IMG/VR virus record: IMGVR_UViG_3300020221_000047
Span: 1-38,453 of that record
DNA from: a virus
Taxonomy: Duplodnaviria; Caudoviricetes
Strand: one strand, 5' to 3'
DNA: 38,453 nt
Positions within the stretch are counted from its first letter, which is position 1. Each line of letters begins with the position of its first letter. A program made the translations under genes and the position numbers. A model generated the notes under the pieces. The model searched no databases and was not told the DNA's origin. It was given only the letters and a program-made list of their open reading frames with translations. Positions 1-30,028 of this stretch are shown piece after piece.

Positions 1-1956
1 GCGGGAGAAACAATCCTCGTAGACAAGGTGGTATACCTAGACGAAGACGGCATGTGGTATCTTGCCGACGCAGAGACTGTAGGGAAGTCAGAGAACGTCA
101 TTTTAGGCATCTCACGTGGCGGTGGTACAACGGGAAATGCCATAGGCGGTGGAGTTACTGTTTTTGGAGGACACACGGCTTCTAGCGCAATTTTTACTGC
201 AAATACGCACTATTATGTGTCTGATACAGACGGGGAACTTTCAGATACACCGGGGACACTAGAAGTATCTCTTGGTGTCGCAAAAACGACCACACTTATT
301 CTGCTGTATCCTCGGTATAATCAACAACTAACCGAAGCAATCCAAGACGCGTTACAAAACCCAACGTCAGGTACACCACTTTCTGCCGATAATGGTGTTG
401 TGGATGAGGCAGACACAAGCACTACACCAATAGCAAACAAGATACCACGTGCTGACGCTGATGGGAGTATTGACGGGTGGATCGGAACGTTAGGTACACT
501 TGGTGAAACATTAGCAGAGGGAGTACTTGTAAAGCCAGTTAATGTCTCTGGTTCTGCAAAGTATACACAATCACACGGACTCTATCCAAGTAAATCTGGC
601 GGTCATACCGTAGGTACGATGAGTACAGTTAACAGCACAATGGCAGATGCGATAAAAATAGAAAAAATGACAGACGAACTTGCGGTTTGTATGTTCAGGG
701 AATCTTCAACAGCACGTATCACATTCAGTGTACTGAAGATGAGCACAGCGGGTGCTATTACAGCATATGGTGGTTACGACACAGGCTTATCAGCAGTGGC
801 ATCATACGGTTTTGCTGACATAACACGTCTTACAGATACGACGTTTGTCGCGGTGTGGAATAACTCTAATGACTCACACTATTCAACTGCTGTCATTGGG
901 ACAGTAAATCCTTCTACTGGTGCCATTACATTTAATACACCAGCCCGCATTCAAACAGATACTAATAGCAACGGTGTCCAAAACGCAGTATCTCGATTGA
1001 CAGATACATCATTTGTGTACGCGTTCAGCGGAGCGTCTAGTTACGTGAAGACGTTGGTTGGGACGATATCTGGGACAACAATTACACCGCACACAATCGT
1101 CTCTTCAGGAACACAGATGCAACTGTCTGATAATGCCGCATTCAAGGACAGATTAAAAGTGGTATCACTCTCAGACACCTCATTTGTTGCTTCTTTTGTG
1201 GGGACAAGTTCAACAACGGTTAATGCGTTTGCTGGAAGTGTTGGCGTGGATGGGTATACGGTAACACTCGGCTCCGTTGTTTCGGAAACATACACACCAT
1301 TGCATGGTATAAGTATTGACAAGGTATCAACAGAAAATGCTGTAATATCCTTTGGAGTTAGTGGCGCCGTCTATGTCTTGCCTATCTCTATCTCTGGAAA
1401 CGTTGTTACAAAAGGTACTGTCCAGTCTGTATCAACACAGTCTGGGTATCTTGCACGAGTGAAAACAATAAAAGAAATAAGTCCTGATGTATATAGTATG
1501 GTATCACTGTTTCGTGTGTCTACGACATTATATATTGGTGTATTTCATCTCAATGTCGCAACAAAGACGGTAACTTCAGGTGTTTACATAACAGCAACAG
1601 CGTCAGTAACAAACGACGAATACTCTGGCGCTGATATTAGCGTCTTACAAGACAGCCAAAACCAAATGTATGGTGTTGCGGTTGGGAAAAACAGTGCTGA
1701 TTTAGTTGCATACCCTGTTACATTTTCAATGACATCAGACATAACTGACTGTGTCGGTATCACACAAGAGTCGGGTGATGAAGATGACATAATAACAATT
1801 ACAACAGACAGGAACATATCATCTGCTCATTCTGATTTAGTTGTTGGAACAAAAAAATATCTTCAACATGACGGTTCGTTAGGTGATACGGAAAGCGATG
1901 TATTGGTTGGCGTACCCTTGTCAGAAACAAAAATGTTTCTTAAGTTCGGTGCATAA
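1..1956 (+). CDS. Virion tail/receptor-binding protein with beta-propeller-like repeats (5'-truncated)
   Basis: Frame is open from base 1 (AGETILVDKVVYL...). Ser/Thr/Gly/Val-rich, with ~50-aa repeats (ITRLTDTTFVAVW, VSRLTDTSFVYAF, VVSLSDTSFVASF). Confidence 0.65.
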   Translation, partial: AGETILVDKVVYLDEDGMWYLADAETVGKSENVILGISRGGGTTGNAIGGGVTVFGGHTASSAIFTANTHYYVSDTDGELSDTPGTLEVSLGVAKTTTLILLYPRYNQQLTEAIQDALQNPTSGTPLSADNGVVDEADTSTTPIANKIPRADADGSIDGWIGTLGTLGETLAEGVLVKPVNVSGSAKYTQSHGLYPSKSGGHTVGTMSTVNSTMADAIKIEKMTDELAVCMFRESSTARITFSVLKMSTAGAITAYGGYDTGLSAVASYGFADITRLTDTTFVAVWNNSNDSHYSTAVIGTVNPSTGAITFNTPARIQTDTNSNGVQNAVSRLTDTSFVYAFSGASSYVKTLVGTISGTTITPHTIVSSGTQMQLSDNAAFKDRLKVVSLSDTSFVASFVGTSSTTVNAFAGSVGVDGYTVTLGSVVSETYTPLHGISIDKVSTENAVISFGVSGAVYVLPISISGNVVTKGTVQSVSTQSGYLARVKTIKEISPDVYSMVSLFRVSTTLYIGVFHLNVATKTVTSGVYITATASVTNDEYSGADISVLQDSQNQMYGVAVGKNSADLVAYPVTFSMTSDITDCVGITQESGDEDDIITITTDRNISSAHSDLVVGTKKYLQHDGSLGDTESDVLVGVPLSETKMFLKFGA

Positions 1957-1982
1957 CTTTATTATATATAGTAGTTAACATC

Positions 1983-3322: not shown

Positions 3323-6300
3323 ATGCAAAGACCGTCATTTCTTGATGACACAGATAACAATGTGTCGCCAACCTCAAAACGCCCGTCGTTTCTTGACGGT
3401 GCAGATTACAGCGTAACACCTAAAACCGTTACTCCCACAGAGACGAAAGAAAAGAAAAACGCATGGGAACTCTTGGGGGAATTGGGAAGCAACGTAGGAA
3501 AGGTAGGCTCAAATATCGGGAAGATAATCACGACACCAGAAGGACGTGAGGATTTTGCTATGTCGCTTGAGGGTGGGGTAAAGTCTTTGACAAAAGCAAC
3601 ATATGACTACGCTGATTTGTTTTGGGGTGGTGCGTCAAAGGCATTGCAGAGCGTAGGGCTTCCGAACACGGTAGCGAGCGCAACAAAGGAGTCAGTAAGA
3701 GAAAAGTCAGACGTTGTCAATAAAGAACTCCGTGATTTTATGGAGGGGTACGAACTCGCATACAGTCCTGAATATGTAAAAAAACAAGATGAGATACGGA
3801 GGGCAGAGACGGATATACGTCTTATGGAAAATGACATCAATATGCTCAAAAAAGAGATTGACTCTTTCCCTGAAACATTTGCGACACAAAAAGAACGAGA
3901 CGAAGCAGGTAAAAAAATAAATGAATACAACAGGATGATTGAGCGATCAGAAGGACTCTTTTCAAAGATTGACACGTTGTTATCAGAAGAAAAAGGGTTT
4001 ATTGACCGTATTACAGGAGAGGGTGGAGTCCATGAGATTTCAAAGATACTCGGTATGTCTCTTCCTACGACAGCGGCGTTATATGGGGCAGGTATCGTTA
4101 CTGGTGGTTCTGTACCAGTACTGCTTGCTACGTCATACATGGCGAATGCGGGCTTTGCGTATGGGGAAGCAAAAGAATATGTTGCTAACTCTGGTATAAA
4201 CATGGACAGCCAAACGGAAGATAAACTAGGGAAAATAGCGATATTAGTAGGGGCAATGACGGCTCCACTTGACACACTGGGTTTTGAGGGTGTTATGGCG
4301 AACAAAGACTTTTTGAATATAAAAAACACACTTATAAAAAATATCGTAAGACCGATACTTGATACGGGGATTGGGGCAGTGTCAGAAGGAGGCACAGAGT
4401 TTCTGCAAGAAGTCATCAGCAATGCGTGGGCAATGACGTATGATGAACATAGAACACTTTTAGACAACACGTATGAGGCAGCGTTCGCTGGTGCGTTAAT
4501 GGGTGGCGGAGTAGCGGTTACTCAATATGCAACGGGGAGCGCACAAAAGCAACGTGCAGAGTTAGACAAATTGCGAGCGTCATGGAAACTCATCCTTGGG
4601 TCAGATACAATGTTACAAACGTATATTGCTGAAGAAGTAAAAAACGGGTCGTCAGGAAAAGACATTGTTGCCAATATACAAAAGAACGCAAAAGATATAG
4701 GGAAGACTGTTGATATACAAAAGGTTGCTGATGACGTGTCATCAGTGGTGTCTGCATGGAAAAACACGTCTGCACAAATACAACATACGATAGCGACGGA
4801 AGGAAAAAGTAAGGCAATTCTTGATGTGGTGGCAAAGGGAGAAACGACAGAGAAAGCAGAGGAAATAATAGCAATGTTATCAAAGGATGCTACACCACAA
4901 AAAGAAACAGATGTACAGATGACGGATATTGAGTCCACACTGACAAACATTCTTCCTGCAAAAAAAGAAACATCCTTGACAGAAAAAACTCCTGCGATGC
5001 TTCTTGAGGAGATTGACACCATGCGTGGTGATACAGAAGAAATAGATACCACAATCGCAGATTTGAAACAACGTATTGACGAAGCGCAAACGGGGTCGCA
5101 AGAAAAAAAGGACTTGAAAATACAGTTGTCCAACATGCAAAAACAGCGGGCTTCTTCGGACGTGGCATATCAAGAAAGGTTACAAACACACGCAAAAGAT
5201 TTTCGCACATTTGTCAAGAGTTATATACATAATACTTATGCCAATAAGGGACTGTCCAATGAAGACATTGACACAATCATAGATAGTGTTGTATCTGAAA
5301 GTGTGGGGACAAGTGAAAAAACACTTGGTGAGATTATTGATGGCATCGTAGGTGAACATAAGAAGAAAAATGTTTCTGGTGTGAAGAAGAAAGAAAAGGT
5401 TGTGGTCAAGAATGAGAAAGATGTGAAGACGAAAACGGATGGTGATACGAAAAACAAGAAGTCTAACGCTGAAGCATTGGCAATGGCAAACGACGCAAAC
5501 CAAGCAACATCTGATGCTTCATTATTACAAGAAGCTAGGAAGTATAAGAGCGCAGAGGAGTTTATAAAGGCACAGGGGACACTTGTTTATCACGGGACAG
5601 CGTCTAAATTCGAAATATTTGACCCAAAATTTAAGGGTTACTCTACTGATGCAGAAAGTGCGAAAGGAGCTTTTTGGTTTACTGACGACCCAGCTACTGC
5701 AAAGGCATATGCCATTTATGCCGCTGAAGATGCCCCAGTTCAAAGATTATTAAAACAAGCAGATGAAGCTGAAAAATTAGCACAAAAAACAGGGAAAGAA
5801 AGTGATTGGGCTAAATATGATAAGTTAATTGAAGAGTCTGAAAAACTTGCAGAATACGATGCAACATTTAAAAGAAGAGAAATGGCAAATGTAAAAGAAG
5901 CGTATGTTAAAGGTGAATTTTTAGAAATAGATGCTAAAGGAAAAACTCCGCAAGAATTATCTACTGACGATAATATAGACAGTTGGTTAAATTCTAAAAT
6001 TAAAGAAGCTATAAAGAAAAATAAGGCTGGACTAAAAATAATAAATATAGATGATGCTGTTGGTCTTTATAATAAACCATCAACTCATTATGCAGTATTT
6101 AACGCAGAACAAATAAAAACCCAATCCCAACTAACCGACATCTGGAATAAAGCTCATTCCCAACAGCAAGCCTCACCAGAGCAAGCCTTGATAGAAGAAG
6201 CCAAGAAGTATGGGAGTGCTGAGGAGTTCGTGAATGCACAACCAACTAAGATTTATCACAGCACAAGTGCCGAAAATAAGGCAACAATTTTACGAGAAGG

Positions 6301-9300
6301 TTTTAAGAAAGGCAGTGAATTACCAGAAGAAGCTTTTAGAGGTGGTGGACACGGGTCAATGCAAGATAGTATAAGCTTTGCAGACAATGTAAAAGACGCT
6401 TCCCGTTTTGGCATATCTCAAAAAAACACGCTTATTGAAGCTGAATTAAAACCAAACTCTAAAATAATAGATAGAACTGATATTGAATTTGCCGAAGAAC
6501 TTAATTACGAAATACCTAAATTATTAAAAGAAGGGGTAGACGCAGTTAGATTACCAAATACAGGAGAAGGAGAAATTGTGGTTATAAATCCAAAGGCGAT
6601 AGGCAAAATTACTAATTCTTTTGATTATAAAGGAGTTGAGGCTAAAAATCTTGATAAGCTTTTTCAATCTAAAACAAAAACCCAATCCCAACTGATCGAC
6701 ATCTGGAACGAAGCACATGACGCAAAGTTTAAGAAGAAAGATTTGTCGTCAATAAAAAGAAACATGACACCTGATCAAGCGAAGAAGTTTGTGCAGTCTG
6801 TATTCGGCGACTCAGTAGACGCACGTTCTTTACGTGGTGCTTTCTTTGGCGAAACAGACGGTATGTATTCTCCTGCGAAAGTATGGAGAAAAGCAATGGT
6901 TGAATACAAAGTCATCAACGGATTGACAGATAGACGTATTGTGTTCCATGAGGTATTTCACGCATTCCTTGAGAAAAACCTTTCCAAAGAAGAATACAAT
7001 GCTCTTATAGAAAAGACGATGAACAGTCCGCTTTTGCAAGCGTCCCTCAATACACAGTTTCCGTCATACGAAACAAAACGAGAAAAAGCAGAAGAGTGGC
7101 TTGCGGATGATTTTGCACGCTACGTAGATAGTGTCATGGGCAACGAGACCGCTGTTTATGAAAAAACAAATAAGACATTATACAAAAAACTTCTTGAAGT
7201 AATCCGTACCTTTGTAAGAAATGCAATAGGTGCCCAGAAAATATATAGCGATATTCTTTCTCGTGTGGATATGGACATGTTTAAGGATGAACTCGCTGAA
7301 ACTGGAGAGATGATATTGCGTTCGTCTGGCGTTATGGATGAGATGAAAAATGCTCGTGAAATAATAAAAGATATTCCCATGAGCGAACTTATTGGAAAAT
7401 GGAACGGATACATACAAAGCGGTAAGTCTTCTCTTTCTGGTATATTTGACCGTGTCCTTGCAATGGCGATACCACAAGCGGTTGCTGTTGAGCAAGAAAT
7501 GCAAAACACAAACCGTGTTGACTTCCTTGAAGACGTTAAAACACGTTTGAAGATTGACTTTGATGTGTATCTTGTAGACACAATCATTGCTGGTGTGAAA
7601 AACGACGCAGTAACAGGGGTAAAGAATGTGGAGGCGTGGGGTATTACACTTGATAACTCAATTGCTATCGTAAAAGACGCTGTAAAGAACACCGACAAAC
7701 ACGAAGTGGTACACCTTGTCCTTGCGAATGCGGAGAACATCCCCGTAATGAGGGAGCATGGGATTACAAAAGAAAAAATACTTACCGCGCAGGCGACAAG
7801 TGAAGGAAAAACATATAAAGACTTAACACTTTCTGAACGTGTGGAAATTGAAGAGCGTGTTGCTGAAGGGTACGAGGCGTACAAAGGAGGAAAACAATAT
7901 GCAGGTATTGTTGGCACATTTTATCGTTTACTCAAGCAAGGAATGGATGCCGTGCAAACACTTCTCGGGCATGTAGATGAAGTACAACGATTTTATGACA
8001 TCTTGGAAACTGAAACAGCGGGTGCGCAGGAGGTTGTGCGTATAAAAAACAATGGGGTGCTGTCTTCTCTTATAGAAGACAGCGTACTTGACGCGCGCGG
8101 TTCTGAACATTCTCTCCGCGATTATGACTCCGTGCGTAAAATGGATATAGTAAAAACAAAAGAAGTTGATCCGCTCATCAAGGAGGCACAAAAATATGAA
8201 ACACTGGAGGAGTATGTGCAGGAACAAAACAACACAACAAGAAGAAAAAAATTGATTAATGAAATTAAAGATATTATAGATAATAAAAAAGAAAAAGTTG
8301 ATGTTGAACAGGATATTGAAGATGAAGTAAACGACACGGTGTTTGACGCTGAAGATGCCGTTAATAGTGGGTACCTCAAAGAAGCAGATGACGAACTGCT
8401 CCCCGACGATGTTTCATATGGGTACATAGATGACGGGAAACTTATTTATGAAGACTCTGACGCTGGATACATTGTTATTAATGGCAAACAAAGTGATTAT
8501 TACGGCATTGATAATTATTTGGAAGAGTCAGGTATAACAGACAGTTTGCGTAATGATTTGCGTGATAAGTTACACAAAGAGTCATCTGATCATCAAAAAA
8601 ATATAATTGTTAATAAAAGGGTTGAACACTTAAAAAAAGAAATGCTCGCATATTCAGACGAGCAACTGTACGCTCTTAAAAATAATTTAGAAAACACAGG
8701 GTATAAAGGGAAGCCTTCAATGTCTCAAAGATACATATCTGCAAATGATGACGTTGAGTATGATATTACTATTATACAGAAGGCATCTGCACGTCACTCA
8801 AACACAGAGTATGATGAAATAAGGAAAAGCGAAGACTTTGTGAACTTTGATGGAGACGTTGAGGAATTGAAAAAAACAATAGGAAGTGATTTTTCTGTAG
8901 ATACCAGAACACTCCCCGACATCTGGAACGAAGCACATGACGCAAAGTTTAAGAAGAAAGACGACATTATAGAACGTACGCGTGAAGAGCGTGATACGGA
9001 CGTACTAGTCAATCGCACCAAAGGTGATTACAATATCGTGTCTCTGGCGATAGAAAGACTAAGTGAAAAACTAGGAAAAGCAATAGACGACTTCAAAGAA
9101 ACGCACATAGAAAAGTGGGAAATGTTAGATGAAAAAATAACTGAGTTTTATGAGGACGAAAATATAAACGATATAAAAGATATTGCGCGCAACATGACGC
9201 GATCATACGCAATTACATCAAAAGGAATGGAAAAAATAGAAATGCGTGGGCTTATTCCAAAAGAAATAACAGAAAAAGCCATTGAGTACCGAAAAACAAA

Positions 9301-12184
9301 GGCTGAACTGGTACAAACAGCAAAGATACTTTCGTCTATAAGAAAGGAGATAGCCGGCATTAAAAAAGATACGAAGAACAAAAAGCGTATATTACGAGAT
9401 GTTGAGCAACGGCTGAAAGCACGAGAAGAATATCTTGATAATAAATATCGTTTCATCGAGCAGGGTATTAGAAAAGCAAGGAAAGAAATGAGCGGTATTA
9501 TGGGCGAACGTACACGGAGACTTGCTCTTGCCAAGGAATACCATGGCATGACAGATAGACATATCGGATTACTTCGTAAAGGAAAGAGCATTCGTGATAT
9601 GACAGACGATGAGTTTGGCGAATTTGTCATGCTCGTAGACAGAGAGGGTGCTGTTATTGCAGAAAAACGAAATGCTATTATGTTACTTGAAGCAACAATC
9701 CTTGAACGTGATTTCCAAAAATGGGACAATTTGCGCCAAGTGCTTGGACTCCCCCAAAATATATCTGACATGACCGCAGTAGAAATAACCTTACTCACAA
9801 ACACACTTCGCCAGTACAAAAAAGGAGACGTGTTCTTGCCAACACGTCTCATGGAGACGCTTGGACACACGAGACTTGAGGGACTCCGTACAGAAAGAGA
9901 GATACGTGAGGACGCGTCAGAATTGTCAGGAAAAGATATTGGAATGGACAAGGGTATTAAAGAAGCACGGTATTTCAAACGGGATAATCTGTTGAGACGA
10001 GCAAGCCCGTTACTTGATGTCATCGTAGGAAAGTTTACGAAAGCAGACATAAAAAGAAAAATAAACGCACAAAAAAATATAGATATTGCAAATGAAGCGA
10101 TAAAGAAAGCGCGCGCGTCCAGAAAACGAAGCGTTCTTGAGCGTATAATCCCTACGGACAAAAAAATAAAAGAATATATGGAGGCAACAACGGAAGGAAG
10201 AACAGAGATTGCAAAAATGATGACAAAAGAAGAACTGGAAGCCGCCAAGTTATTGAGCGCGATGATGTATGAGTATTACAACAGAGGTGTCGCGCAATCC
10301 ATTAAAAGAAAGTTTAATTCTCGTTTCGTTGGCGCATACTACCACCACACACAACGTGGATTTCTTGAGGCGTTGAAAGATGACGGTTTCATCAGCGCGT
10401 TTGTGGAACTGCTTGTAAAAAACAAACACGAGCAAACGATGATGACTATTCTAAACGGGAAAACTGGAGATATTCTTCCATATGAAAAGTTTGTTGGTGC
10501 AAAACAATTTCGTTCCAACACCATGAAAGAAACGCTGAATGTGGCGCAGGCAATGGAGCGATACATATTACAAATGGAAAATGCGTTTGCACTCGATGAA
10601 ATGATACCTGAAGTTATGGCGTATACCTATGCGTTTTCTCCCAAAAAAGAAACCGAGTACGGTGTTAAAATGGACACACGGTTACAAGATTTTGTCAAGG
10701 AATATATAAACACAAAAAAGGGACGACCTGTGAAACTTGTATTTGAGCCCGGTGGATTATTCAATACAATGATTACCATGTCTGTAAAAATAGCACGCAT
10801 GATGCACCTTGGAATTAACATACCGACACAAATCGTGTCCCCCATTGGTGAAATGGTTGCAAACCTGACGAGGCTTGGAGCGAAGAAACTTGCACTAGGA
10901 GAATTGCGCATGAAAACAAAAAAGGGAAAGGTGATACTAGAGAAGTATAAAGGTATCATCGGTATGGGATTGTTTCGGTCGTTTGTAGAGACCTCAAATA
11001 CACCAAACGATGTTGCCATGCTTATTGCTTTTCCTATTTACCACGCAAGTAGTTATCACGCAACAGCACAGTTTGTTCTTGCTTCTCTCACAGAAGAAGA
11101 GTACATATCTGGTGATGTATCTCTTGAGCGTATGACGGAGATTATGCTATCCGCTGGGAAATATAGAAAAATAGAAGGTCAAGAGTCTATCAGGGGACAC
11201 TCTTCTGAAATAAATGCACTCAGTTTGTACCGAGGATGGGCTATTCCTCTTGTAAACGGCGTGTTCACAACAGCAATTGACCTTACGAAAATGATAAAAA
11301 AGGATGGTATTAACGCGTTGAAAACTCCTGAAGCGAGAGAAATGTATTATGCAATAGGTGTTGGGTTGTCAATACTTACATTGTTTGGTTCTCTATACGA
11401 TGACCTTGAAGACAAGGACGACCGTACCGTCATAGAAGATGTTATATTCAAAGCAATCCGAGAAGCAAACACGATTTACGGAGCATTTGATATAACTATG
11501 TGGACACAAAGTGCGTATTTGGACTTTATCGGAAACGTTGCGAACTCTTTATGGAGCATCATTACACTTGAGAGGAATAGCAAAGGTGATTTTGTTGGTA
11601 TGGGGAAATTGAGCAAAACACTTACGCCAAACATAATAAAACGGATACTTCCTGACGAAGAAAAACAATCAGTAAAAATGTCTGGCTCAGTAAAGAAATA
11701 TATTGAAAAAGGAAACGTAACAAAAGAGACTGTTGCAACTATTGCGGAGGAGTTGTTCGGAACATTGTATACAGAAGGAAATGAGTCATACAAGAGAAAT
11801 AAAGAAAAACAAATTATCCGTGCGGTTGCCTTGTATACGACATACGGAAGTGATGATGAGTTTGCAAATGTTCTCGTCAAGGAGTCAGATCATAATGTGA
11901 TAAAATTATATGTACTTGAACATGACACGAACGTGGCAAGGTATAAAGAAAAAATAAAAATGTTCGGTATTGTAAGTAGTATTATCAGCGAAGACTTCAA
12001 AAAACAACTCGAGTCAATACGGAATGCAAATAATGCGGATAAAGAACGTATACAAGAAATACTTACAGCAAAAGATGAAGATAAGAAAAAAGAGATATTG
12101 TCAAGTGATATCAACTTTGCGAAACGTGCGTTTCAAAAATATGGTATTATTAACAAAGACCTTTATCAGTCAATCATAGACTAA
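3323..12184 (+). CDS. Large polyvalent (probably ejected) protein with two ART-like domains and two zincin (HExxH) metallopeptidase-like domains
   Basis: 2953 aa. LVYHGT...AFWFTDDPATAKAYA...YAVFNAEQIK (ART-PolyVal-like); KIYHST...SISFAD...EGEIVV (ART-like); HEVFH...EEWLADDF and HEVVH...EERVAEGY (zincin-like). Gly/Ala-rich hydrophobic segments near the N-terminus. Confidence 0.8.
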   Translation: MQRPSFLDDTDNNVSPTSKRPSFLDGADYSVTPKTVTPTETKEKKNAWELLGELGSNVGKVGSNIGKIITTPEGREDFAMSLEGGVKSLTKATYDYADLFWGGASKALQSVGLPNTVASATKESVREKSDVVNKELRDFMEGYELAYSPEYVKKQDEIRRAETDIRLMENDINMLKKEIDSFPETFATQKERDEAGKKINEYNRMIERSEGLFSKIDTLLSEEKGFIDRITGEGGVHEISKILGMSLPTTAALYGAGIVTGGSVPVLLATSYMANAGFAYGEAKEYVANSGINMDSQTEDKLGKIAILVGAMTAPLDTLGFEGVMANKDFLNIKNTLIKNIVRPILDTGIGAVSEGGTEFLQEVISNAWAMTYDEHRTLLDNTYEAAFAGALMGGGVAVTQYATGSAQKQRAELDKLRASWKLILGSDTMLQTYIAEEVKNGSSGKDIVANIQKNAKDIGKTVDIQKVADDVSSVVSAWKNTSAQIQHTIATEGKSKAILDVVAKGETTEKAEEIIAMLSKDATPQKETDVQMTDIESTLTNILPAKKETSLTEKTPAMLLEEIDTMRGDTEEIDTTIADLKQRIDEAQTGSQEKKDLKIQLSNMQKQRASSDVAYQERLQTHAKDFRTFVKSYIHNTYANKGLSNEDIDTIIDSVVSESVGTSEKTLGEIIDGIVGEHKKKNVSGVKKKEKVVVKNEKDVKTKTDGDTKNKKSNAEALAMANDANQATSDASLLQEARKYKSAEEFIKAQGTLVYHGTASKFEIFDPKFKGYSTDAESAKGAFWFTDDPATAKAYAIYAAEDAPVQRLLKQADEAEKLAQKTGKESDWAKYDKLIEESEKLAEYDATFKRREMANVKEAYVKGEFLEIDAKGKTPQELSTDDNIDSWLNSKIKEAIKKNKAGLKIINIDDAVGLYNKPSTHYAVFNAEQIKTQSQLTDIWNKAHSQQQASPEQALIEEAKKYGSAEEFVNAQPTKIYHSTSAENKATILREGFKKGSELPEEAFRGGGHGSMQDSISFADNVKDASRFGISQKNTLIEAELKPNSKIIDRTDIEFAEELNYEIPKLLKEGVDAVRLPNTGEGEIVVINPKAIGKITNSFDYKGVEAKNLDKLFQSKTKTQSQLIDIWNEAHDAKFKKKDLSSIKRNMTPDQAKKFVQSVFGDSVDARSLRGAFFGETDGMYSPAKVWRKAMVEYKVINGLTDRRIVFHEVFHAFLEKNLSKEEYNALIEKTMNSPLLQASLNTQFPSYETKREKAEEWLADDFARYVDSVMGNETAVYEKTNKTLYKKLLEVIRTFVRNAIGAQKIYSDILSRVDMDMFKDELAETGEMILRSSGVMDEMKNAREIIKDIPMSELIGKWNGYIQSGKSSLSGIFDRVLAMAIPQAVAVEQEMQNTNRVDFLEDVKTRLKIDFDVYLVDTIIAGVKNDAVTGVKNVEAWGITLDNSIAIVKDAVKNTDKHEVVHLVLANAENIPVMREHGITKEKILTAQATSEGKTYKDLTLSERVEIEERVAEGYEAYKGGKQYAGIVGTFYRLLKQGMDAVQTLLGHVDEVQRFYDILETETAGAQEVVRIKNNGVLSSLIEDSVLDARGSEHSLRDYDSVRKMDIVKTKEVDPLIKEAQKYETLEEYVQEQNNTTRRKKLINEIKDIIDNKKEKVDVEQDIEDEVNDTVFDAEDAVNSGYLKEADDELLPDDVSYGYIDDGKLIYEDSDAGYIVINGKQSDYYGIDNYLEESGITDSLRNDLRDKLHKESSDHQKNIIVNKRVEHLKKEMLAYSDEQLYALKNNLENTGYKGKPSMSQRYISANDDVEYDITIIQKASARHSNTEYDEIRKSEDFVNFDGDVEELKKTIGSDFSVDTRTLPDIWNEAHDAKFKKKDDIIERTREERDTDVLVNRTKGDYNIVSLAIERLSEKLGKAIDDFKETHIEKWEMLDEKITEFYEDENINDIKDIARNMTRSYAITSKGMEKIEMRGLIPKEITEKAIEYRKTKAELVQTAKILSSIRKEIAGIKKDTKNKKRILRDVEQRLKAREEYLDNKYRFIEQGIRKARKEMSGIMGERTRRLALAKEYHGMTDRHIGLLRKGKSIRDMTDDEFGEFVMLVDREGAVIAEKRNAIMLLEATILERDFQKWDNLRQVLGLPQNISDMTAVEITLLTNTLRQYKKGDVFLPTRLMETLGHTRLEGLRTEREIREDASELSGKDIGMDKGIKEARYFKRDNLLRRASPLLDVIVGKFTKADIKRKINAQKNIDIANEAIKKARASRKRSVLERIIPTDKKIKEYMEATTEGRTEIAKMMTKEELEAAKLLSAMMYEYYNRGVAQSIKRKFNSRFVGAYYHHTQRGFLEALKDDGFISAFVELLVKNKHEQTMMTILNGKTGDILPYEKFVGAKQFRSNTMKETLNVAQAMERYILQMENAFALDEMIPEVMAYTYAFSPKKETEYGVKMDTRLQDFVKEYINTKKGRPVKLVFEPGGLFNTMITMSVKIARMMHLGINIPTQIVSPIGEMVANLTRLGAKKLALGELRMKTKKGKVILEKYKGIIGMGLFRSFVETSNTPNDVAMLIAFPIYHASSYHATAQFVLASLTEEEYISGDVSLERMTEIMLSAGKYRKIEGQESIRGHSSEINALSLYRGWAIPLVNGVFTTAIDLTKMIKKDGINALKTPEAREMYYAIGVGLSILTLFGSLYDDLEDKDDRTVIEDVIFKAIREANTIYGAFDITMWTQSAYLDFIGNVANSLWSIITLERNSKGDFVGMGKLSKTLTPNIIKRILPDEEKQSVKMSGSVKKYIEKGNVTKETVATIAEELFGTLYTEGNESYKRNKEKQIIRAVALYTTYGSDDEFANVLVKESDHNVIKLYVLEHDTNVARYKEKIKMFGIVSSIISEDFKKQLESIRNANNADKERIQEILTAKDEDKKKEILSSDINFAKRAFQKYGIINKDLYQSIID
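6115..6708 (+). repeat. 33-bp direct repeat pair (6115-6147 and 6676-6708, 2 mismatches) at cassette right borders
   Basis: aaaaacccaatcccaactaaccgacatctggaa vs aaaaacccaatcccaactgatcgacatctggaa; spacing 561 bp (in frame). Confidence 0.95.
6697..8961 (+). repeat. 45-bp exact direct repeat pair (6697-6741 and 8917-8961)
   Basis: cgacatctggaacgaagcacatgacgcaaagtttaagaagaaaga occurs twice, encoding DIWNEAHDAKFKKKD; spacing 2220 bp (in frame). Confidence 0.97.
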
Positions 12185-12189
12185 CTAAC

Positions 12190-13239
12190 ATGACACAAGA
12201 CACACTCACCGGCACATTTGTTGCCGAAGACGCACGCACAGATGAGGAAAAAGCACAAGATTATACTTCGGACGAGATACTCGGAGGAAGTGTTGTTTTG
12301 CCCGTGTGGCAAGAAAAAGAAAAGTTTGACTGGGATATATGGTCGCTCCGAGATCAGATAAATTCATCATCATGTGGAGGGCAGGCAGGGGCAAAGGCGA
12401 TAGAGGGATTTTATCATGTCGTCGCTTCCGCAACACCGATATATCGTCATAGGGCGAACTTCGCAGGTGAGGGTATGTGGCAACAGAACATCGGAGACAT
12501 TCTGAAAAAGATAGGTACGACAAGCGAAGCACGCATGACTTCGCAGAAGATAACAGAAGAAAAACTCAACTCATTCACACTCGCAGATATTGCGGATACG
12601 CTCAGGGATGAAAAGTACACAATAAGCGCGTATTACTTTCTCGGAAGTGGAAAAAATGCAAACATGGACGCAATCGCGCAAGCACTCGCTCTGGGACATG
12701 CGGTGATATTCCTTGTACGGACGAATGGGAATGAATGGCAAGAGGTCGTAACTTATAAAGGCGGAGACATCACGTTCTCGCATTTCGTTACGGCGGTTGG
12801 GAAACATAACTTCACTCTCTATAATGGAGAAAAGAGCGTCGTGATAGACGACTCGTGCAATGCGTTCTCCACACTGAAAAAGGATGGGCAACCGACAGGG
12901 CAACGCATTCTCACAGAGATGTTTATTCGTGAACGTGTTGCAGGGGTTATGGCTATCGTGCCGTCATTGGTAGAGGCAAAGCCAAAGCATACATTCACGA
13001 AATACCTCACGTATGGACTTCGGGTAGATAAGGACGTGGTCGCATTGCAGGACATTCTGAAACACGTAGGATACATGAGCAGAGACATACCAAGCACGGG
13101 CAACTTCTTGCAACTCACTGCGAAGGCGGTCGTTGCGTGGCAGGTTGCCAATGGTATGGATGATTTCGCCAATGCGCCGTTGTCGAGCGTGCGCGTGGGA
13201 CCGAAGTCTGTAGCATTACTCAATAAACTATATTCATAA
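12190..13239 (+). CDS. Putative endolysin: papain-like (C1-type) cysteine peptidase plus C-terminal peptidoglycan-binding domain
   Basis: DQINSSSCGGQA (Gln/Cys), SHFVTAVG (His), VIDDS; C-terminal DVVALQDIL...TGNFLQLTAKAVVAWQ...VGPKSVALLN is PG_binding_1-like; next to a holin. Confidence 0.75.
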   Translation: MTQDTLTGTFVAEDARTDEEKAQDYTSDEILGGSVVLPVWQEKEKFDWDIWSLRDQINSSSCGGQAGAKAIEGFYHVVASATPIYRHRANFAGEGMWQQNIGDILKKIGTTSEARMTSQKITEEKLNSFTLADIADTLRDEKYTISAYYFLGSGKNANMDAIAQALALGHAVIFLVRTNGNEWQEVVTYKGGDITFSHFVTAVGKHNFTLYNGEKSVVIDDSCNAFSTLKKDGQPTGQRILTEMFIRERVAGVMAIVPSLVEAKPKHTFTKYLTYGLRVDKDVVALQDILKHVGYMSRDIPSTGNFLQLTAKAVVAWQVANGMDDFANAPLSSVRVGPKSVALLNKLYS

Positions 13240-14293: not shown

Positions 14294-14480
14294 GTAAACA
14301 TGGTAACACGACACAAAACAAAAAACAACTAGTCGTTATCCACAGGTGTGGTTGTCTATGTGTTATTGAATTTGTTATTATGTTATTGCGGGCGACGGCT
14401 CGTATTATAAATAACCTTATGACCGGCAGAGGTAGCATTCTCATAAGGTGTGCTACCTCTATCGGCATCCAAAACATAAT

Positions 14481-15218: not shown

Positions 15219-15750
15219 CATGACACCAAAACAACTTTTTGAAAATGCGTCAATAGATACATTGTCAAATGAAATACAAGAAAAAGTAAGATCAGCAAAA
15301 GAAACACGCCGTGGATTGTACATTCATGGGAAAGTTGGCGTAGGAAAAACATACATGATGCACGCAATAAAAAATTACTTCACGAAAACATATAATCGTG
15401 CATGGTTTGAAAATTATACGGAAATGGTAGCGACAATAAAAAACGAGTCTCTGTCAAATTATGGATTTTCAGAGACACTTGACAAATTAAAAAAATATGA
15501 GTATCCAGTTTTTATTGACGACATCACAACAGAGAGAGTAACCGACTTTCAAGAAGAGATTATGTACCGCATCCTCGACAGCAGGTATGACAGTGGGTAC
15601 ATTACATATCTCTCATCGAACAGAGACACCGACGCTATCACTAATGTCTTTGGTTCACGTATCACATCACGCATACTAGGCATGTGTGATAAAATGGAAA
15701 TAAAAGGAAAAGATTTACGTATGAAGGAGGCACTTGACAAAACAAAATAA
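15193..15750 (+). CDS. DnaC/IstB-like AAA+ helicase loader
   Basis: Walker A GKVGVGKT, Walker B VFIDD, ILDSRY, SSN, SRITSRI; start may be 15220. Confidence 0.9.
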   Translation: MWKTKTLTNMTPKQLFENASIDTLSNEIQEKVRSAKETRRGLYIHGKVGVGKTYMMHAIKNYFTKTYNRAWFENYTEMVATIKNESLSNYGFSETLDKLKKYEYPVFIDDITTERVTDFQEEIMYRILDSRYDSGYITYLSSNRDTDAITNVFGSRITSRILGMCDKMEIKGKDLRMKEALDKTK

Positions 15751-15764
15751 AAAAGCAAAACTAC

Positions 15765-15800
15765 TTATCCACAGGTATACAACACACATAATGGTATACT
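15765..15800 (+). promoter_or_regulatory. DnaA-box motif plus extended -10 promoter, probably leaderless dnaB transcript
   Basis: TTATCCACA 15765-15773; TGgTATACT ends at 15800, 7 nt before the ATG at 15808. Confidence 0.6.
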
Positions 15801-17389: not shown

Positions 17390-18241
17390 ATGAAAATAAT
17401 TAATACAAGAGATTATCCATCCGTTCCCACAATAAACATGCTCGTGTATGGGCGAGGTGGAGTTGGAAAATCAACATTCGGCGCGACATTCCCAAGAGTA
17501 TTGTTTATTGATTTTGAAAACGGAGTTAAATATTTTAACCAGCGTGGCATCGAGGTTCCCGTAGTACAATTTCAGAACTTTCCCACACACCAAGAGCAGA
17601 TGCAAATAGTTGAGTATGCAAACGCTAATAAGTTCGATTCAATTGTCATTGACCCAATCGGTGAAGCAATGGAAAAACTAATTAAAGACCATGCAATTAT
17701 TTCTGGGCAAAAATATCGACAAAATAACGGAGACCTTACAATGGCTGGGTGGGGAAAGGTAAAAGATGAAATGCGCACATTTCTAAAATGCCTCCGTGAT
17801 ACGGGGAAGAACATGGTCATCATCGCACACACAAACTCGGTGCAGGACGGTGAAGTCATAAAAGAACGTCCTCTTGTCGCCACAAAACTCGTGGACGAAC
17901 TCATTGCAATGGTGGATATTGTAGGATACCTAGATGTGGTGAAAGACGGGGAAACATCAAAAAGAATTATTAGGTTAAATCCCGCAGACCCACGCTTTGA
18001 CGCAAAAGACCGAACGGGGGCATTGCCAGAAATTATAAAACCAGAATACGCGTGGATTACGAAACAAATCAAATCATCGCAGAATGCAAGCATCAAAAAA
18101 GAAACACCTAAAGACACAACGATAGTAACAGAGCAACCAGAAGTGGCAGATGTACCGCAAACGGAAGAAGTTGTGCAAGAAATAGAAACACAACAAGAAA
18201 ATCCGTTTGACAACGAGATAGAGGATGACATGATTGTATGA
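17390..18241 (+). CDS. AAA_24 / Sak4-like ssDNA-annealing ATPase
   Basis: LVYGRGGVGKST, LFIDFENG, IVIDP, IIAH, DIVGYL, AKDRTG; acidic tail; next to exonuclease and SSB. Confidence 0.85.
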   Translation: MKIINTRDYPSVPTINMLVYGRGGVGKSTFGATFPRVLFIDFENGVKYFNQRGIEVPVVQFQNFPTHQEQMQIVEYANANKFDSIVIDPIGEAMEKLIKDHAIISGQKYRQNNGDLTMAGWGKVKDEMRTFLKCLRDTGKNMVIIAHTNSVQDGEVIKERPLVATKLVDELIAMVDIVGYLDVVKDGETSKRIIRLNPADPRFDAKDRTGALPEIIKPEYAWITKQIKSSQNASIKKETPKDTTIVTEQPEVADVPQTEEVVQEIETQQENPFDNEIEDDMIV

Positions 18242-19095
18242 ATCCGACAACATTAGAACTGTATGGAGGTGATGTTGTTATTGAGTACCACGAAAACAGC
18301 CACCGATATTATTTAGTAAAAGAAAAAGAAGTATTATCTAAAAAGAAAATGCTTGCTGGTGCGTCGACGATTGCAGGTCTTATGGATAAAAGCAGGATGC
18401 TCATCCCGTGGGCAATACGCTCATACACAGAAAAGGTAGTATCACTTATGGGGAATGGGGTATCGTTCACGAAAGATGATGTCATGTCGATGCTTGCGAT
18501 TGGGGAAAAAGCACATGACGAAGAAAGTATGAATGGAAAAGAGATCGGAACATATCTTCACGCGTGGGCAGAAGAATACGCGAAAGACCAAAACCAAACG
18601 CAAGCATATAATCGTGTCATAAATACACTTGGTTTTCCTAGGAATGAAATTACTGATCAAGTCCATACTGTCGTAAAAGGGTTGCATAAATGGTTAGAAA
18701 ATGAAGAAGTCGAAATAGAGGAAAGCGAAGGTGTTGTATACTCCATGAAAGAAGGGTTTACCGGACGTTTTGACGCGACAATTATAAAAGATGGGAAAAG
18801 ATACCTTGTCGATTATAAGACTTCAAATGGCATTTATGACGAACATAGAGTGCAGGCATCAGCGTACTTAAAGGCGAAAGAAGAAGAAGCAAAATATATC
18901 GGTATTCCCATGATGTATCATGGAGCACTCATCGTAAGCATTGCAAAAAAAGATAAAGAAAAAGATGGTGTGATACAAAAGGCTGGTACAGTTGTCGCCG
19001 AGTATAGAAGTCGTAATGACCTTGTGAAGGATTATAAATTATTCAAATCACTTGTGGCGGTTCACAAAAGACAAAAAGAACTCGCCAAAAAATAA
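18238..19095 (+). CDS. PD-(D/E)XK family exonuclease
   Basis: GTYLH...GRFDA...LVDYKTS...QASAY motifs. Confidence 0.85.
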   Translation: MNPTTLELYGGDVVIEYHENSHRYYLVKEKEVLSKKKMLAGASTIAGLMDKSRMLIPWAIRSYTEKVVSLMGNGVSFTKDDVMSMLAIGEKAHDEESMNGKEIGTYLHAWAEEYAKDQNQTQAYNRVINTLGFPRNEITDQVHTVVKGLHKWLENEEVEIEESEGVVYSMKEGFTGRFDATIIKDGKRYLVDYKTSNGIYDEHRVQASAYLKAKEEEAKYIGIPMMYHGALIVSIAKKDKEKDGVIQKAGTVVAEYRSRNDLVKDYKLFKSLVAVHKRQKELAKK

Positions 19096-19100
19096 CTACT

Positions 19101-19571
19101 ATGGATACTAACATCGCAATTATTGTGGGTCGTCTCACGAGAGACCCAGAATTAAAAACATTACCAAACGGAGGTCATGTTGCAGACTTTTCTGTTGCTA
19201 CAGGTCGACATTGGAAAGATAAAAACACGGGAGAAAAACGAGAGGAAACAGATTTCCACAACGTCGTGGTATTTGGGGCGCAGGCAGACAGTTGTGCCCA
19301 ATATCTAAAAAAAGGACAACTAGTAAGCATAGAAGGACGTATGCAGACCAGAACATGGGAAGGAGACAACGGTGTCAAACACTATCGGACAGAAATAATT
19401 GCCTCAAATGTACATTTTGGGCCCAAACCAAACAGCGGGGGAAATCAGGATGTGCAACAGCCATATAGGCGCGAAGCGAAACAAAGCAATCCTAGGTATA
19501 CTACCGTGTCGCACGAAGAAAAAATAGAATACCCAACAGAAGATATAAACATTGAGGACATCCCTTTTTAG
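19101..19571 (+). CDS. ssb: Single-stranded DNA-binding protein
   Basis: GRLTRDPELK...IEGRMQTRTW...EDIPF C-terminus. Confidence 0.97.
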   Translation: MDTNIAIIVGRLTRDPELKTLPNGGHVADFSVATGRHWKDKNTGEKREETDFHNVVVFGAQADSCAQYLKKGQLVSIEGRMQTRTWEGDNGVKHYRTEIIASNVHFGPKPNSGGNQDVQQPYRREAKQSNPRYTTVSHEEKIEYPTEDINIEDIPF

Positions 19572-19604
19572 TACCTATCCGCAGCATAAAGAATAGCAAA
19601 AAAT

Positions 19605-20072
19605 ATGAAAATAAAATTACAATTCAACGCAACAGTTGAAAAAAAAGAAAAAACACACGTGCTCAACATCGTGCAAAAAGACACATTCAAAAAACTTCTT
19701 GCGCAAATGGAGGGTAAAAAAGTTATCTTGACAATTGATCCAGTAAAACGCACGCGCTCTCTAAACCAAAACTCATACTGGTGGGGTGTTTGCTATCCGA
19801 TACTTGCAGATGCGACAGGACACACAATTCCAGAGGTGCACGAAATATGCAAAACATTGTTTATTGTTCCAAAAACAATACAAATAGACCCAGCACTCAA
19901 AGACACACTTGACGACATACTCACCACAGCACCAGAGAGCGTAGCATACGAAAGAAGCACAACGGAACTTTCTGTGGGAGAGGGCATAGAGTATACAGAT
20001 ATGGTACGGAGACTTGCCCAAGAACTCGGTACATATATTCCCTCACCAGAAGAAGCGGGGTACACATCATGA
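19605..20072 (+). CDS. NinB/DUF1367-like recombination-associated protein
   Basis: RSLNQNSYWWG and STTELS motifs; precedes NinG-like gene. Confidence 0.6.
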   Translation: MKIKLQFNATVEKKEKTHVLNIVQKDTFKKLLAQMEGKKVILTIDPVKRTRSLNQNSYWWGVCYPILADATGHTIPEVHEICKTLFIVPKTIQIDPALKDTLDDILTTAPESVAYERSTTELSVGEGIEYTDMVRRLAQELGTYIPSPEEAGYTS

Positions 20073-20452
20073 TAAATAATCAAAAAAAAGAATTATGGGA
20101 ACTTTGCAAGGCACATACGAGAAAAAAGTATGGGACGGCATGTTTTACATGTGGTACGATATGTGGTGTATTGCACACAGGGCATTTTATCCCGTCGTCT
20201 GTGTGCGGGGCACTGCTACGGTATCACCCACACAATCTCGCAACACAATGTGAACATTGCAACATAGCACTTTCAGGGAATGTCAATATATATGAAAAAA
20301 GATTGCGAGAAAAAATAGGAGATAAGAAAGTTGATGCTCTTTTTAGACTCAAACATAAATCAGTGAAAGCAGATAGTATATTTCTCCAAACACTTATAGA
20401 CATTTACAAAAAAGGAGACGAAGAAAAGATTGTCGCGTTTTTAGAAAAATAG
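20069..20452 (+). CDS. NinG/Rap-like endonuclease
   Basis: CFTCG...HTGHFIP...LRYHPHNLATQCEHCN. Confidence 0.85.
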   Translation: MINNQKKELWELCKAHTRKKYGTACFTCGTICGVLHTGHFIPSSVCGALLRYHPHNLATQCEHCNIALSGNVNIYEKRLREKIGDKKVDALFRLKHKSVKADSIFLQTLIDIYKKGDEEKIVAFLEK

Positions 20453-22188: not shown

Positions 22189-22416
22189 ATGAAAAAATTA
22201 CTTAAAAAGATTTCTGGTATTAGTATTTACTATATAAAGGATGGTGTGAGACACGATGGTGCTCATGAAAATATCTCTGGGAACGTGAATGATATCTATG
22301 GGGACGTGAGCGGTATCTCTGGGAACGTGAGCGGTATCTCTGGGAATGTCGACGGATGTGAAATCACTAACGCAGAACGAGAGAAAGGAATAGATATAGT
22401 TGAACTTATTGGATAA
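22189..22416 (+). CDS. Hypothetical protein with heptapeptide (ISGNVSG) repeats
   Basis: ORF 22126-22416, likely start 22189 (MKKLLKK). Confidence 0.65.
   Translation: MKKLLKKISGISIYYIKDGVRHDGAHENISGNVNDIYGDVSGISGNVSGISGNVDGCEITNAEREKGIDIVELIG
22273..22356 (+). repeat. 21-bp tandem repeat x4 (coding)
   Basis: Consensus atctctgggaacgtgagcggt. Confidence 0.9.
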
Positions 22417-25982: not shown

Positions 25983-26040
25983 ACGATTTCCCCGCGAGAG
26001 CGAATTGACAAAATCGTGAAAATGTTTTGCAACATAAACC

Positions 26041-26083
26041 TGTGGATAAGTATACTTGCAAAACTATTTTGCTTGTGTATACT
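26041..26083 (+). promoter_or_regulatory. DnaA box (reverse) plus sigma70-like promoter
   Basis: TGTGGATAA 26041-26049; TTGCAA 26056-26061; TATACT 26078-26083. Confidence 0.6.
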
Positions 26084-29659: not shown

Positions 29660-30028
29660 AATCACAGTACAAATGCGAGTCCAACTCGGGAGTATGACTG
29701 TAAAACTACCTTCCGCAAAACACAAGGAGCATTCAGGTATTCGTGCGAAATCACGGGAAAACTGTTGTAAACTCAGTCCGTGACTTGGAACGAGTGTCGG
29801 AATGTTCTAAAGGAGAAAAAAGAGAAGCGAGATGTCGCGACGTACTTCTATCTTCATAGCACATATACACTAAATCGTCTGACTGTAATAGATACTTTTA
29901 TCCCTTTCACTACGATTGCTTCAGGAATATCTCTTTCCTAAGGTAAAAGTTTAGAGTTTATCTAAGTATTAGTGAAAGGAATAAAGATATTTATTCGTAA
30001 CGAGCGCAAAAACTTTTTTTTATTTTTT

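What the first reader, a model, noticed from the sequence alone, without database searches (positions are those of the whole stretch)
5522..8961. Candidate swappable effector-cassette system: three unrelated payloads enclosed by the same motif pair in a giant virion protein
Seen: three segments open with L[LI]xEAxKYx[ST]xEE[FY]xxxQ (LLQEARKYKSAEEFIKAQ 5522; LIEEAKKYGSAEEFVNAQ 6188; LIKEAQKYETLEEYVQEQ 8174). Each closes with LxDIWN[KE]AH (ending 6157, 6718, 8938). The interiors show no obvious similarity, and the first two look more AT-rich and GCT-codon-rich than the rest of the gene. Known: phage polyvalent proteins carry ART and zincin domains and are thought to be delivered with the DNA. 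Inference: the two motifs form one discontinuous helical 'socket' domain, or processing signals, that lets effectors be plugged in and swapped. This would be a polymorphic-toxin-like arsenal internal to an ejection protein. I do not know of a description of this motif pair.
Basis: partly seen in the sequence, partly recalled or inferred. Interest (0 to 1): 0.88.

Follow-up and report, generated by a model that had tools for sequence, protein, structure and literature searches.

The report
Plug-in enzyme sockets in phage proteins
In many uncultured phages, giant proteins that are likely injected into the host carry enzyme modules enclosed by one conserved pair of short motifs, and near-identical phages differ by which module sits between them; the pair is predicted to fold into a small three-helix clasp, and its DNA likely serves as matching arms for swapping modules by recombination.

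Summary
Confirmed and extended. The three motif pairs lie where stated in a 2,953-aa phage protein. The pair is strictly ordered in other phages (opener, 8-311 aa payload, closer), and a junction profile finds 2,191 protein clusters. Of 358 non-redundant payloads, 57-69% are ADP-ribosyltransferase (ART)-like; the rest include ParB-like, GNAT, nucleotidyltransferase, zincin and an 8-residue empty form. Correction: payloads 1 and 2 are both ART-fold; only payload 3 is unrelated. Swapping is seen directly: contigs 99.2-99.8% identical to this gene carry other payloads in slots 1-2, joined in frame inside the motifs, and a second phage group shows the same. The motifs keep otherwise rare codons at silent sites. 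AlphaFold folds the empty cassette into three helices (pLDDT 90, pTM 0.62). Best reading: a dual-coded socket, clasp in protein and recombination arms in DNA. Virion delivery, cleavage, catalysis and the recombinase are inferred. My searches found no description of the motifs in print. This scan noted a similar helix pair before in a crAss-like phage (e1-5752454); I could not tell whether it is the same pair.

The parts
3323..12184 (+). Giant (2,953 aa) polyvalent-type phage protein, likely an ejected virion protein; the scaffold for the cassettes
   Evidence: ORF; ART-PolyVal hit; followed by a peptidoglycan-binding protein and a holin-like ORF; packaging is inferred
5468..5509 (+). Left breakpoints of variant alleles: after 5468 (L171) or 5509 (L172) the gene continues in frame into the second half of another opener
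5522..5575 (+). Opener 1 (helices 1-2 of the clasp; G-rich DNA arm)
5576..6115 (+). Payload A: ART-PolyVal domain with a helical insert; an 89%-identical copy sits in another scaffold (P0028)
6116..6157 (+). Closer 1 (helix 3 of the clasp; C-rich DNA arm)
6188..6241 (+). Opener 2
6242..6676 (+). Payload B: divergent ART-fold domain, no Pfam hit
6677..6718 (+). Closer 2; the right breakpoint of allele L171 lies inside it
6697..6741 (+). 45-nt exact direct repeat, copy 1 (right half of the closer plus HDAKFKKK)
   Evidence: a separate 45-nt unitig at about twice the flanking depth in runs X1, X8 and X9
6947..6961 (+). HExxH motif of zincin-like domain 1 (outside the cassettes)
   Evidence: sequence; no Pfam peptidase hit
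7700..7714 (+). HExxH motif of zincin-like domain 2 (outside the cassettes)
   Evidence: sequence; no Pfam peptidase hit
8174..8227 (+). Opener 3 (more diverged)
8228..8911 (+). Payload of cassette 3: acidic (53 D/E against 30 K/R in 224 aa), not ART-like, no relative found; same payload in L171
8912..8938 (+). Closer 3 (right half only)
8917..8961 (+). 45-nt exact direct repeat, copy 2
17390..20452 (+). Candidate recombination module: AAA_24 P-loop protein, PD-(D/E)XK nuclease, SSB, and NinG further on; its link to the cassettes is inferred
   Evidence: Pfam and NCBIfam hits; that AAA_24 is Sak4-like and NinG is Rap is recalled, not from a call

Best explanation
The motif pair marks a swappable cassette whose two ends are predicted to fold together into a small three-helix clasp, and whose conserved DNA likely acts as a pair of homology arms for exchanging the enclosed module between phages. 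Shown: the pair is ordered; it encloses several unrelated folds or almost nothing; payloads differ between phages whose gene is otherwise over 99% identical, with in-frame joints inside the motifs; and the 30-35 nt cores keep rare codons at silent sites. Predicted: opener helices 1-2 pack on closer helix 3, so the payload enters and leaves the chain at one point and can be replaced or stacked in tandem without disturbing the scaffold. Inferred: during co-infection or prophage encounter a phage single-strand-annealing recombinase (here likely the AAA_24/SSB/nuclease module) crosses over within the arms. Repeated exchange would keep the arms uniform and build tandem arrays and repeats such as the 45-nt duplicate. 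Inferred: the protein is ejected with the DNA; its payloads, mostly NAD-using ART-fold enzymes, would modify host or defence targets early in infection; and the zincin-like domains might release them. The clasp probably began as the terminal helices of one ART domain.
For: Order: 71 of 112 distinct openers have a closer within 400 aa downstream, 33 are cut off by the locus end and 8 have none by score. All 12 upstream closers lie within 60 aa (tandem joints). 37 of 43 closers found independently have an opener upstream. In the top 150 profile hits, opener-to-closer occurs 261 times, opener-opener 7 times and closer-closer 9 times. Payloads: 358 non-redundant in 107 BLAST clusters; 203 ART-PolyVal-like, 44 more probably ART-fold, 30 ParB-like, 81 other; GNAT and nucleotidyltransferase above the Pfam cut-off. 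Swaps: L171 replaces 5469-6678 by 547 nt of another payload, with flanks 99.2% and 99.8% identical; L172 has two other payloads after 5509. The same branch points appear in public-run contigs. L014/L034 against L148: flanks 100% identical over 120 nt, payload 34%, mismatches starting inside the opener and ending inside the closer. Silent sites: for example Ser TCC 104 of 113 against 8% expected, Glu GAG 171 of 185 against 31%; GC3 0.52 and 0.58 in the arms against 0.23 in payloads; weaker bias at the payload's own YHGT motif. Fold: empty cassette pLDDT 90, pTM 0.62, helices 2-6, 12-18 and 25-40; in cassette 2 the end helices score 95 and 97. Half-motifs break at many positions, as homology-driven exchange predicts. 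Phage annealing proteins tolerate diverged substrates (PMC3945230 abstract; PMC5928155 passages, 12% divergence).
Against: I saw no coordinates or contacts, so packing of opener on closer rests on confidence scores. The left joints of L171 and L172 have no upstream homology and remove helix 1, so simple arm-to-arm crossover does not explain them and the full clasp is not always needed. Both land at the same base, and 4 of 10 right-half openers start exactly at EEF. The G-rich/C-rich asymmetry of the arms is unexplained. Silent-site scores are not corrected for relatedness, and the closer matrix was trained on the loci it was tested on. Slot 3 did not vary in L171. No experiment shows recombination, delivery, cleavage or catalysis, and the H-Y-D triad of ART-PolyVal is not cleanly kept in payloads A and B.
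Confidence: 0.68

Rival explanations
1. The arms are recognition sites of a site-specific recombinase, nickase or transposase acting on imperfect inverted repeats, so the cassettes are true mobile elements.
For: Strong silent-site conservation of rare codons. Opener and reverse-complemented closer share a GAGTT core. Left joints of L171 and L172 fall at the same base. In the three right-joint comparisons the last mismatch is in the same closer codon.
Against: Half-motifs break at many positions. Opener-closer pairing is no better than composition-matched controls (199 of 3000 synonymous recodings and 898 of 3000 shuffles as stable), and no compensatory changes appear. No integrase or transposase hit among the window ORFs scanned, but the genome is about 78% complete.
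Confidence: 0.13
2. The clasp is kept for its own biochemical job (zincin cleavage tag, packaging or unfolding signal, or a cap that keeps the payload inactive), and DNA uniformity is a by-product of recent spread.
For: Strong amino-acid conservation of the helix cores. Two HExxH domains flank the cassettes. Iyer et al. propose MPTase processing of polyvalent proteins (PMC5512222, section 33). An empty cassette exists. The cassette block ends within 15 aa of the C-terminus in 48 of 147 proteins.
Against: Does not explain rare codons held across loci of 29-52% GC. Alleles lacking helix 1 are abundant in several runs. No cleavage data.
Confidence: 0.12
3. The motifs are just the terminal helices of one ART lineage, and non-ART interiors are rare accidents.
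For: 57-69% of payloads are ART-like. All four sequenced slot 1-2 payloads of this phage group (A, B, C, D) are ART-fold.
Against: 111 of 358 payloads are ParB-like or other, with GNAT and nucleotidyltransferase above cut-off. The motifs lie outside the profile match. The empty form is predicted to fold. This may describe the origin, not the present state.
Confidence: 0.06
4. The alleles are assembly chimeras made at the repeated motifs.
For: All data are metagenome contigs; the motifs are repeats; no raw or long reads were laid.
Against: Left joints lie in non-repeated sequence and recur in runs X8, X10 and X13, with a 533-nt unitig holding 71 nt of backbone at depth 14. Payloads A and B have no long cover in those runs, while the backbone is covered. 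All joints are in frame.
Confidence: 0.01

Closest known systems
Polyvalent proteins of phages (Iyer et al. 2017, PMC5512222; read: abstract, sections 9, 29, 32, 33 and passages; supplements not seen)
   Same: Giant multi-enzyme protein with ART-PolyVal and zincin-like domains in a late-gene setting. The paper raises recombinational variability for one kinase-bearing system.
   Different: No enclosing motif pair or split domain appears in the parts I read ('linker' and 'inserted' occur 0 times). Its 40 LPD alignments are in supplements I could not see, but no Pfam LPD model hit the cassettes.
ART-PolyVal (PF18760)
   Same: Payload A is a member (44.4 bits, cut-off 31.2); 35 of 114 payloads hit it, 21 above cut-off.
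   Different: The motifs lie outside the match and also enclose non-ART domains.
Polymorphic toxin systems (Zhang et al. 2012, PMC3482391; search listing only)
   Same: Effector diversity by recombination of cassettes into a conserved carrier.
   Different: Here cassettes are bounded on both sides, are often internal, and stack in tandem. No immunity gene or orphan cassette array was seen in the window.
MARTX toxins (PMC5555677, PMC6315884; search listing only)
   Same: A giant delivered protein with an internal block of effector domains that varies by gene exchange.
   Different: Bacterial toxin for eukaryotic cells; no sequence comparison was made. An analogy only.
Relaxed homologous recombination by phage annealing proteins (PMC3945230 abstract; PMC5928155 passages); T4 gp38 modular adhesins (PMC3157838, listing only)
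   Same: Exchange of modules at short conserved borders.
   Different: Here the border is shared by over 2,000 protein clusters across 44 scaffold groups and is predicted to double as a split protein domain.
phi24B gp47 (bioRxiv 10.64898/2026.04.10.717836; passages)
   Same: A 2,811-aa polyvalent protein found in virions by proteomics and proposed to be an ejection protein; supports the delivery inference.
   Different: No motif match among 50,697 GenBank phage records.

Membership tests
Phage polyvalent proteins | Large protein combining disparate enzymatic domains | tested here: met
   2,953 aa; two ART-fold domains, two HExxH domains, one unknown
Phage polyvalent proteins | Zincin-like MPTase domain | tested here: inconclusive
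   Two HExxH motifs in the sequence; no profile hit
Phage polyvalent proteins | Gene among late/virion genes | tested here: inconclusive
   Followed by a PG-binding protein and a holin-like ORF; upstream genes have no family hit
Phage polyvalent proteins | Packaged in the virion and delivered with the DNA | not testable with these tools
   Inference from context and from phi24B gp47
ART-PolyVal (PF18760) | Profile score above cut-off, payload A | tested here: met
   44.4 bits against 31.2
ART-PolyVal (PF18760) | Profile score above cut-off, payloads B and 3 | tested here: not met
   No hit; B is ART-fold by other tests; payload 3 is not
ART-PolyVal (PF18760) | Motif pair is part of the profile | tested here: not met
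   Match covers residues 21-200 of the 212-aa cassette, profile positions 8-132 of 140
ART-PolyVal (PF18760) | H-Y-D active-site triad | tested here: inconclusive
   H present in A and B; the strand-2 and strand-5 positions vary in alignment A5; activity untested
Polymorphic toxin systems | Variable toxin at the C-terminus | tested here: not met
   Cassettes are internal here; the block is C-terminal in only 48 of 147 proteins
Polymorphic toxin systems | Cognate immunity gene and orphan cassettes | tested here: inconclusive
   None recognised in the window; the motif matrices hit only this gene; genome incomplete
Integron cassettes (attC) | Single-strand hairpin site with paired arms | tested here: not met
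   Pairing not above controls, no compensation; attC features recalled
Integron cassettes (attC) | Tyrosine recombinase nearby | tested here: inconclusive
   No hit in the ORFs scanned; genome about 78% complete
Inteins | Cys/Ser start, His-Asn end and a splicing domain | tested here: not met
   Absent in the sequence; the empty cassette is 41 aa; intein features recalled
Known small helical domains | Clasp matches a solved or viral fold | tested here: inconclusive

The most novel reading that the evidence does not exclude
A phage-wide plug-and-socket standard. One 40-residue split domain, frozen at both protein and DNA level and shared by thousands of unrelated ejection proteins of uncultured (likely CPR-infecting) phages, lets any domain captured between the arms move between scaffolds as a ready-folded effector, possibly through a dedicated site-recognising enzyme. 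The roughly 80 unassigned payload types would then be a pre-sorted library of new anti-host and anti-defence proteins.
Probability: 0.35. Interest if true: 0.9.

Novelty: new variant of a known kind. Interest (0 to 1): 0.78.

Why it matters
How polyvalent proteins gain and lose their domains has been an open inference. This gives a concrete, testable unit with borders at base resolution and allele swaps caught within over-99%-identical phages. The motif pair is also a search handle: it delimits candidate early-infection effectors without prior domain knowledge (2,191 clusters; 81 of 358 sampled payloads outside the ART and ParB groups). If the clasp folds as predicted, it is a minimal natural insertion scaffold.

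Tried and rejected
Opener and closer as separate 30-aa chains: no answer, score 0.27 under the 0.32 mark, controls not folded; not used as evidence. Fold searches with the empty-clasp model: best Z 3.6, none at 5 or more among 48,161 chains; no viral match at E 0.001 or better; uninformative for so small a helical unit. Hairpin or attC-like pairing of the arms: more stable than usage-weighted recoding (126 of 137) but not above uniform recoding or shuffles (p about 0.07 and 0.2-0.3), and no covariation; rejected. Internal ribosome-binding site plus GTG start in the opener: by eye only about 4 of the phage's own 31 starts show a purine-rich SD-like run; weak and not pursued. Chi-like hotspot: arm 7-mers are not enriched elsewhere (ratios 0.79-1.36 over 3.0 Mb); rejected. 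Single crossover base: half-motifs break at many positions. Relatives of payload 3: none in two protein searches or the Atlas; weak evidence of absence. Scaffold C-terminus in IMG/VR: no relative. GenBank phages: no match. tRNA or Rfam family in the 159-nt insert of payload D: none. Literature: motif strings 0 papers; concept searches found no description.
Full report
Observation. ORF 3323-12184 encodes 2,953 aa. The three openers and closers are at the stated places. Cassettes 1 and 2 are poorer in GC at third positions than the backbone and richer in GCT; cassette 3 is intermediate. Closers 2 and 3 share an exact 45-nt repeat, and closers 1 and 2 share 47 nt at 87%. Two HExxH domains lie between cassettes 2 and 3. 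The window is a phage record, about 78% complete, with terminase, helicase, methylase, a PG-binding protein and a holin-like ORF.

Payloads in the window. Payload A is ART-PolyVal, and the match stops short of both motifs. Payload B has no Pfam hit and no BLAST similarity to A. It scores E 9e-17 against an HMM of 162 other payloads built without it or its BLAST relatives (reversed control E 0.015). Its model (pLDDT 85, pTM 0.77) matches MbcT, tankyrase, Tpt1 and viral ART-PolyVal models, and the Atlas puts it beside ART-PolyVal clusters at 0.90. Payload 3 is acidic, is not ART-like, and has no relative in three searches. So two of the three payloads share a fold.

The pair elsewhere. Of 112 distinct openers, 71 have a closer 10-232 aa downstream, 33 are cut off by the locus end, and 8 have none by score. 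By eye, 4 of those 8 have a variant closer, 2 have it in another frame and 2 stop early. All 12 upstream closers are tandem joints. Of 43 closers, 37 have an opener upstream; of the 6 misses, 3 are degenerate, 2 are cut off and 1 has none. Of 864 ORFs without an opener, 7 hold a closer: 5 are seeds and 2 are the frameshifted ones. The closer matrix was trained on these loci, so the first count is partly circular; the reversed-sequence null is 0-1 hits. A profile of 16 tandem joints finds 2,191 clusters at E 0.001 or better among 1.84 billion. In the top 150, which are biased to tandem arrays, the order is nearly strict. With cassettes masked, 147 proteins fall into 44 scaffold groups. In GTDB the opener occurs in 37 contigs, all from metagenome bins, 16 of them in named Patescibacteria bins; these may be misbinned phage contigs. 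The phage's start codons mostly lack SD motifs. A CPR-type host is a lead, not a result. No match was found in 50,697 GenBank phages.

Payload census. 374 payloads reduce to 358 at 90% identity, 8-311 aa, median 126, in 107 BLAST clusters. HMM sorting gives 203 in the ART-PolyVal-like group, 40 in a second group that aligns to it weakly (HHalign 55%, E 1e-4), 4 in a third weak group, 30 ParB-like and 81 other. Pfam on 114 payloads: 35 ART-PolyVal hits (21 above cut-off), 2 GNAT and 1 nucleotidyltransferase above cut-off, and weak ParB and PRTase hits. Further GNAT hits and a zincin hit fall inside cassettes of 30 scanned proteins. L108 holds an empty cassette with 8 residues between the motifs.

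Swapping seen directly. Contig L171 matches the window at 99.2% up to 5468 and 99.8% from 6679, with one other payload (D, 547 nt) in place of cassettes 1-2. L172 matches to 5509 and then carries payloads C and D. C and D are also ART-fold, yet no pair among A-D is similar by BLAST. D is identical over 366 nt in both contigs while its opener DNA differs. Public-run contigs show the same branch points in X8, X10 and X13, and the window allele in X1, which may be the window's source. In X9 and X13, further forms branch at the end of D, including a 159-nt skip and entry into another opener half. These runs are contigs, not raw reads, and may share samples with L171 and L172. Among 137 cassettes with DNA, two more same-scaffold, different-payload cases appear: L014/L034 against L148, and L146 against L169 (left side only). 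Conversely, payload A sits at 89% identity in P0028, whose scaffold matches only weakly at the N-terminus (26%) and not at the C-terminus. Slot 3 is unchanged in L171.

DNA level. Across 191 openers and 155 closers the cores use fixed, often rare codons compared with each protein's own usage (z up to 33, not corrected for kinship). The payload YHGT motif shows a weaker bias, and arm GC3 is more than twice that of payloads. Hairpin, Chi-like and internal-start explanations were tested and dropped. Half-motifs break at many positions (16 left-half and 10 right-half openers, 7 and 26 closers), which fits homology- or microhomology-driven exchange. The identical landing point of the L171 and L172 left joints keeps a site-specific step open.

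Structure. With 60 paired sequences AlphaFold2 folds the empty cassette as three helices in all five models (pLDDT 81-90, best pTM 0.62). In full cassette 2 the same helices score 95 and 97. I saw no coordinates, so the clasp is a prediction.

Mechanism. Shown: ordered pair, varied payloads, allele swaps with joints in the motifs, DNA-level conservation. Predicted: split three-helix clasp. Inferred: exchange by a phage annealing recombinase using the arms (module at 17390-20452; precedent in the PMC3945230 abstract and PMC5928155 passages; the AAA_24-Sak4 link is recalled); ejection with the DNA (PMC5512222 sections 32-33; phi24B gp47 passages); payload action on host targets and possible release by the zincin-like domains.

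Novelty. The carrier is a polyvalent protein, and recombinational variation was suggested for that class. The split, dual-coded socket and its spread are not described in the papers my searches reached; the Iyer supplements were not seen. This scan has earlier notes of module swapping at joints in other phage polyproteins, one with a bracketing helix pair; sequence look-ups found no look-alike window. Verdict: real, a new variant of a known kind, interest 0.78.

Noticed in passing
window 483-1977 against L172: L172 matches the upstream gene only over 1-482 (97.7%) and again from 1978, so the rest of this tail-fibre-like gene is replaced in an otherwise 99%-identical phage.
   Followed up: no
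L171 9277-9435 (payload D): A GC-rich 159-nt in-frame insert that on the opposite strand holds several tRNA T-arm-like hairpins and a D-arm-like stretch (resemblance recalled). ARAGORN and Rfam find nothing; three alternative continuations branch at its start.
   Followed up: partly
window 14308-14347, 15737-15776, 26035-26074 (reverse); 23073, 23425, 23821: A recurring TTATCCACAGG-type word between genes (DnaA-box-like, recalled) and a related word three times; possibly a phage promoter or operator.
   Followed up: no
window, 31 gene starts: Start codons are mostly preceded by A/C-rich, G-poor sequence with no SD motif, suggesting an SD-independent host; the closer's DNA has a similar A/C-rich look.
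   Followed up: partly
window 22272-22349 and 36916-36988: 21-nt tandem repeat (3-4 copies) in a small ORF; exact 31-nt duplicate at 42-nt spacing in a coiled-coil ORF.
   Followed up: no
window 29887-29995: 26-nt inverted repeat (85%) just upstream of and overlapping the start of the 673-aa ORF after the terminase.
   Followed up: no
L170 6651-6683 (window 2044/2045): A second assembly of this phage has a 33-nt reversed copy of window 13182-13214 inserted here; probably an assembly artefact.
   Followed up: no
L172, L142, P0014, P0094: A variant opener, DP(K/T)NF(K/N)(S/T)A(E/D)(E/D), replaces helix 1 in several proteins.
   Followed up: partly
L010, L055, L071, L103: Cassettes broken by a frameshift or an early stop after the opener; decaying copies or sequencing errors.
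   Followed up: no
L036/L132: Three tandem cassettes whose 134-nt joints are 96% identical, suggesting recent unequal crossing-over.
   Followed up: partly
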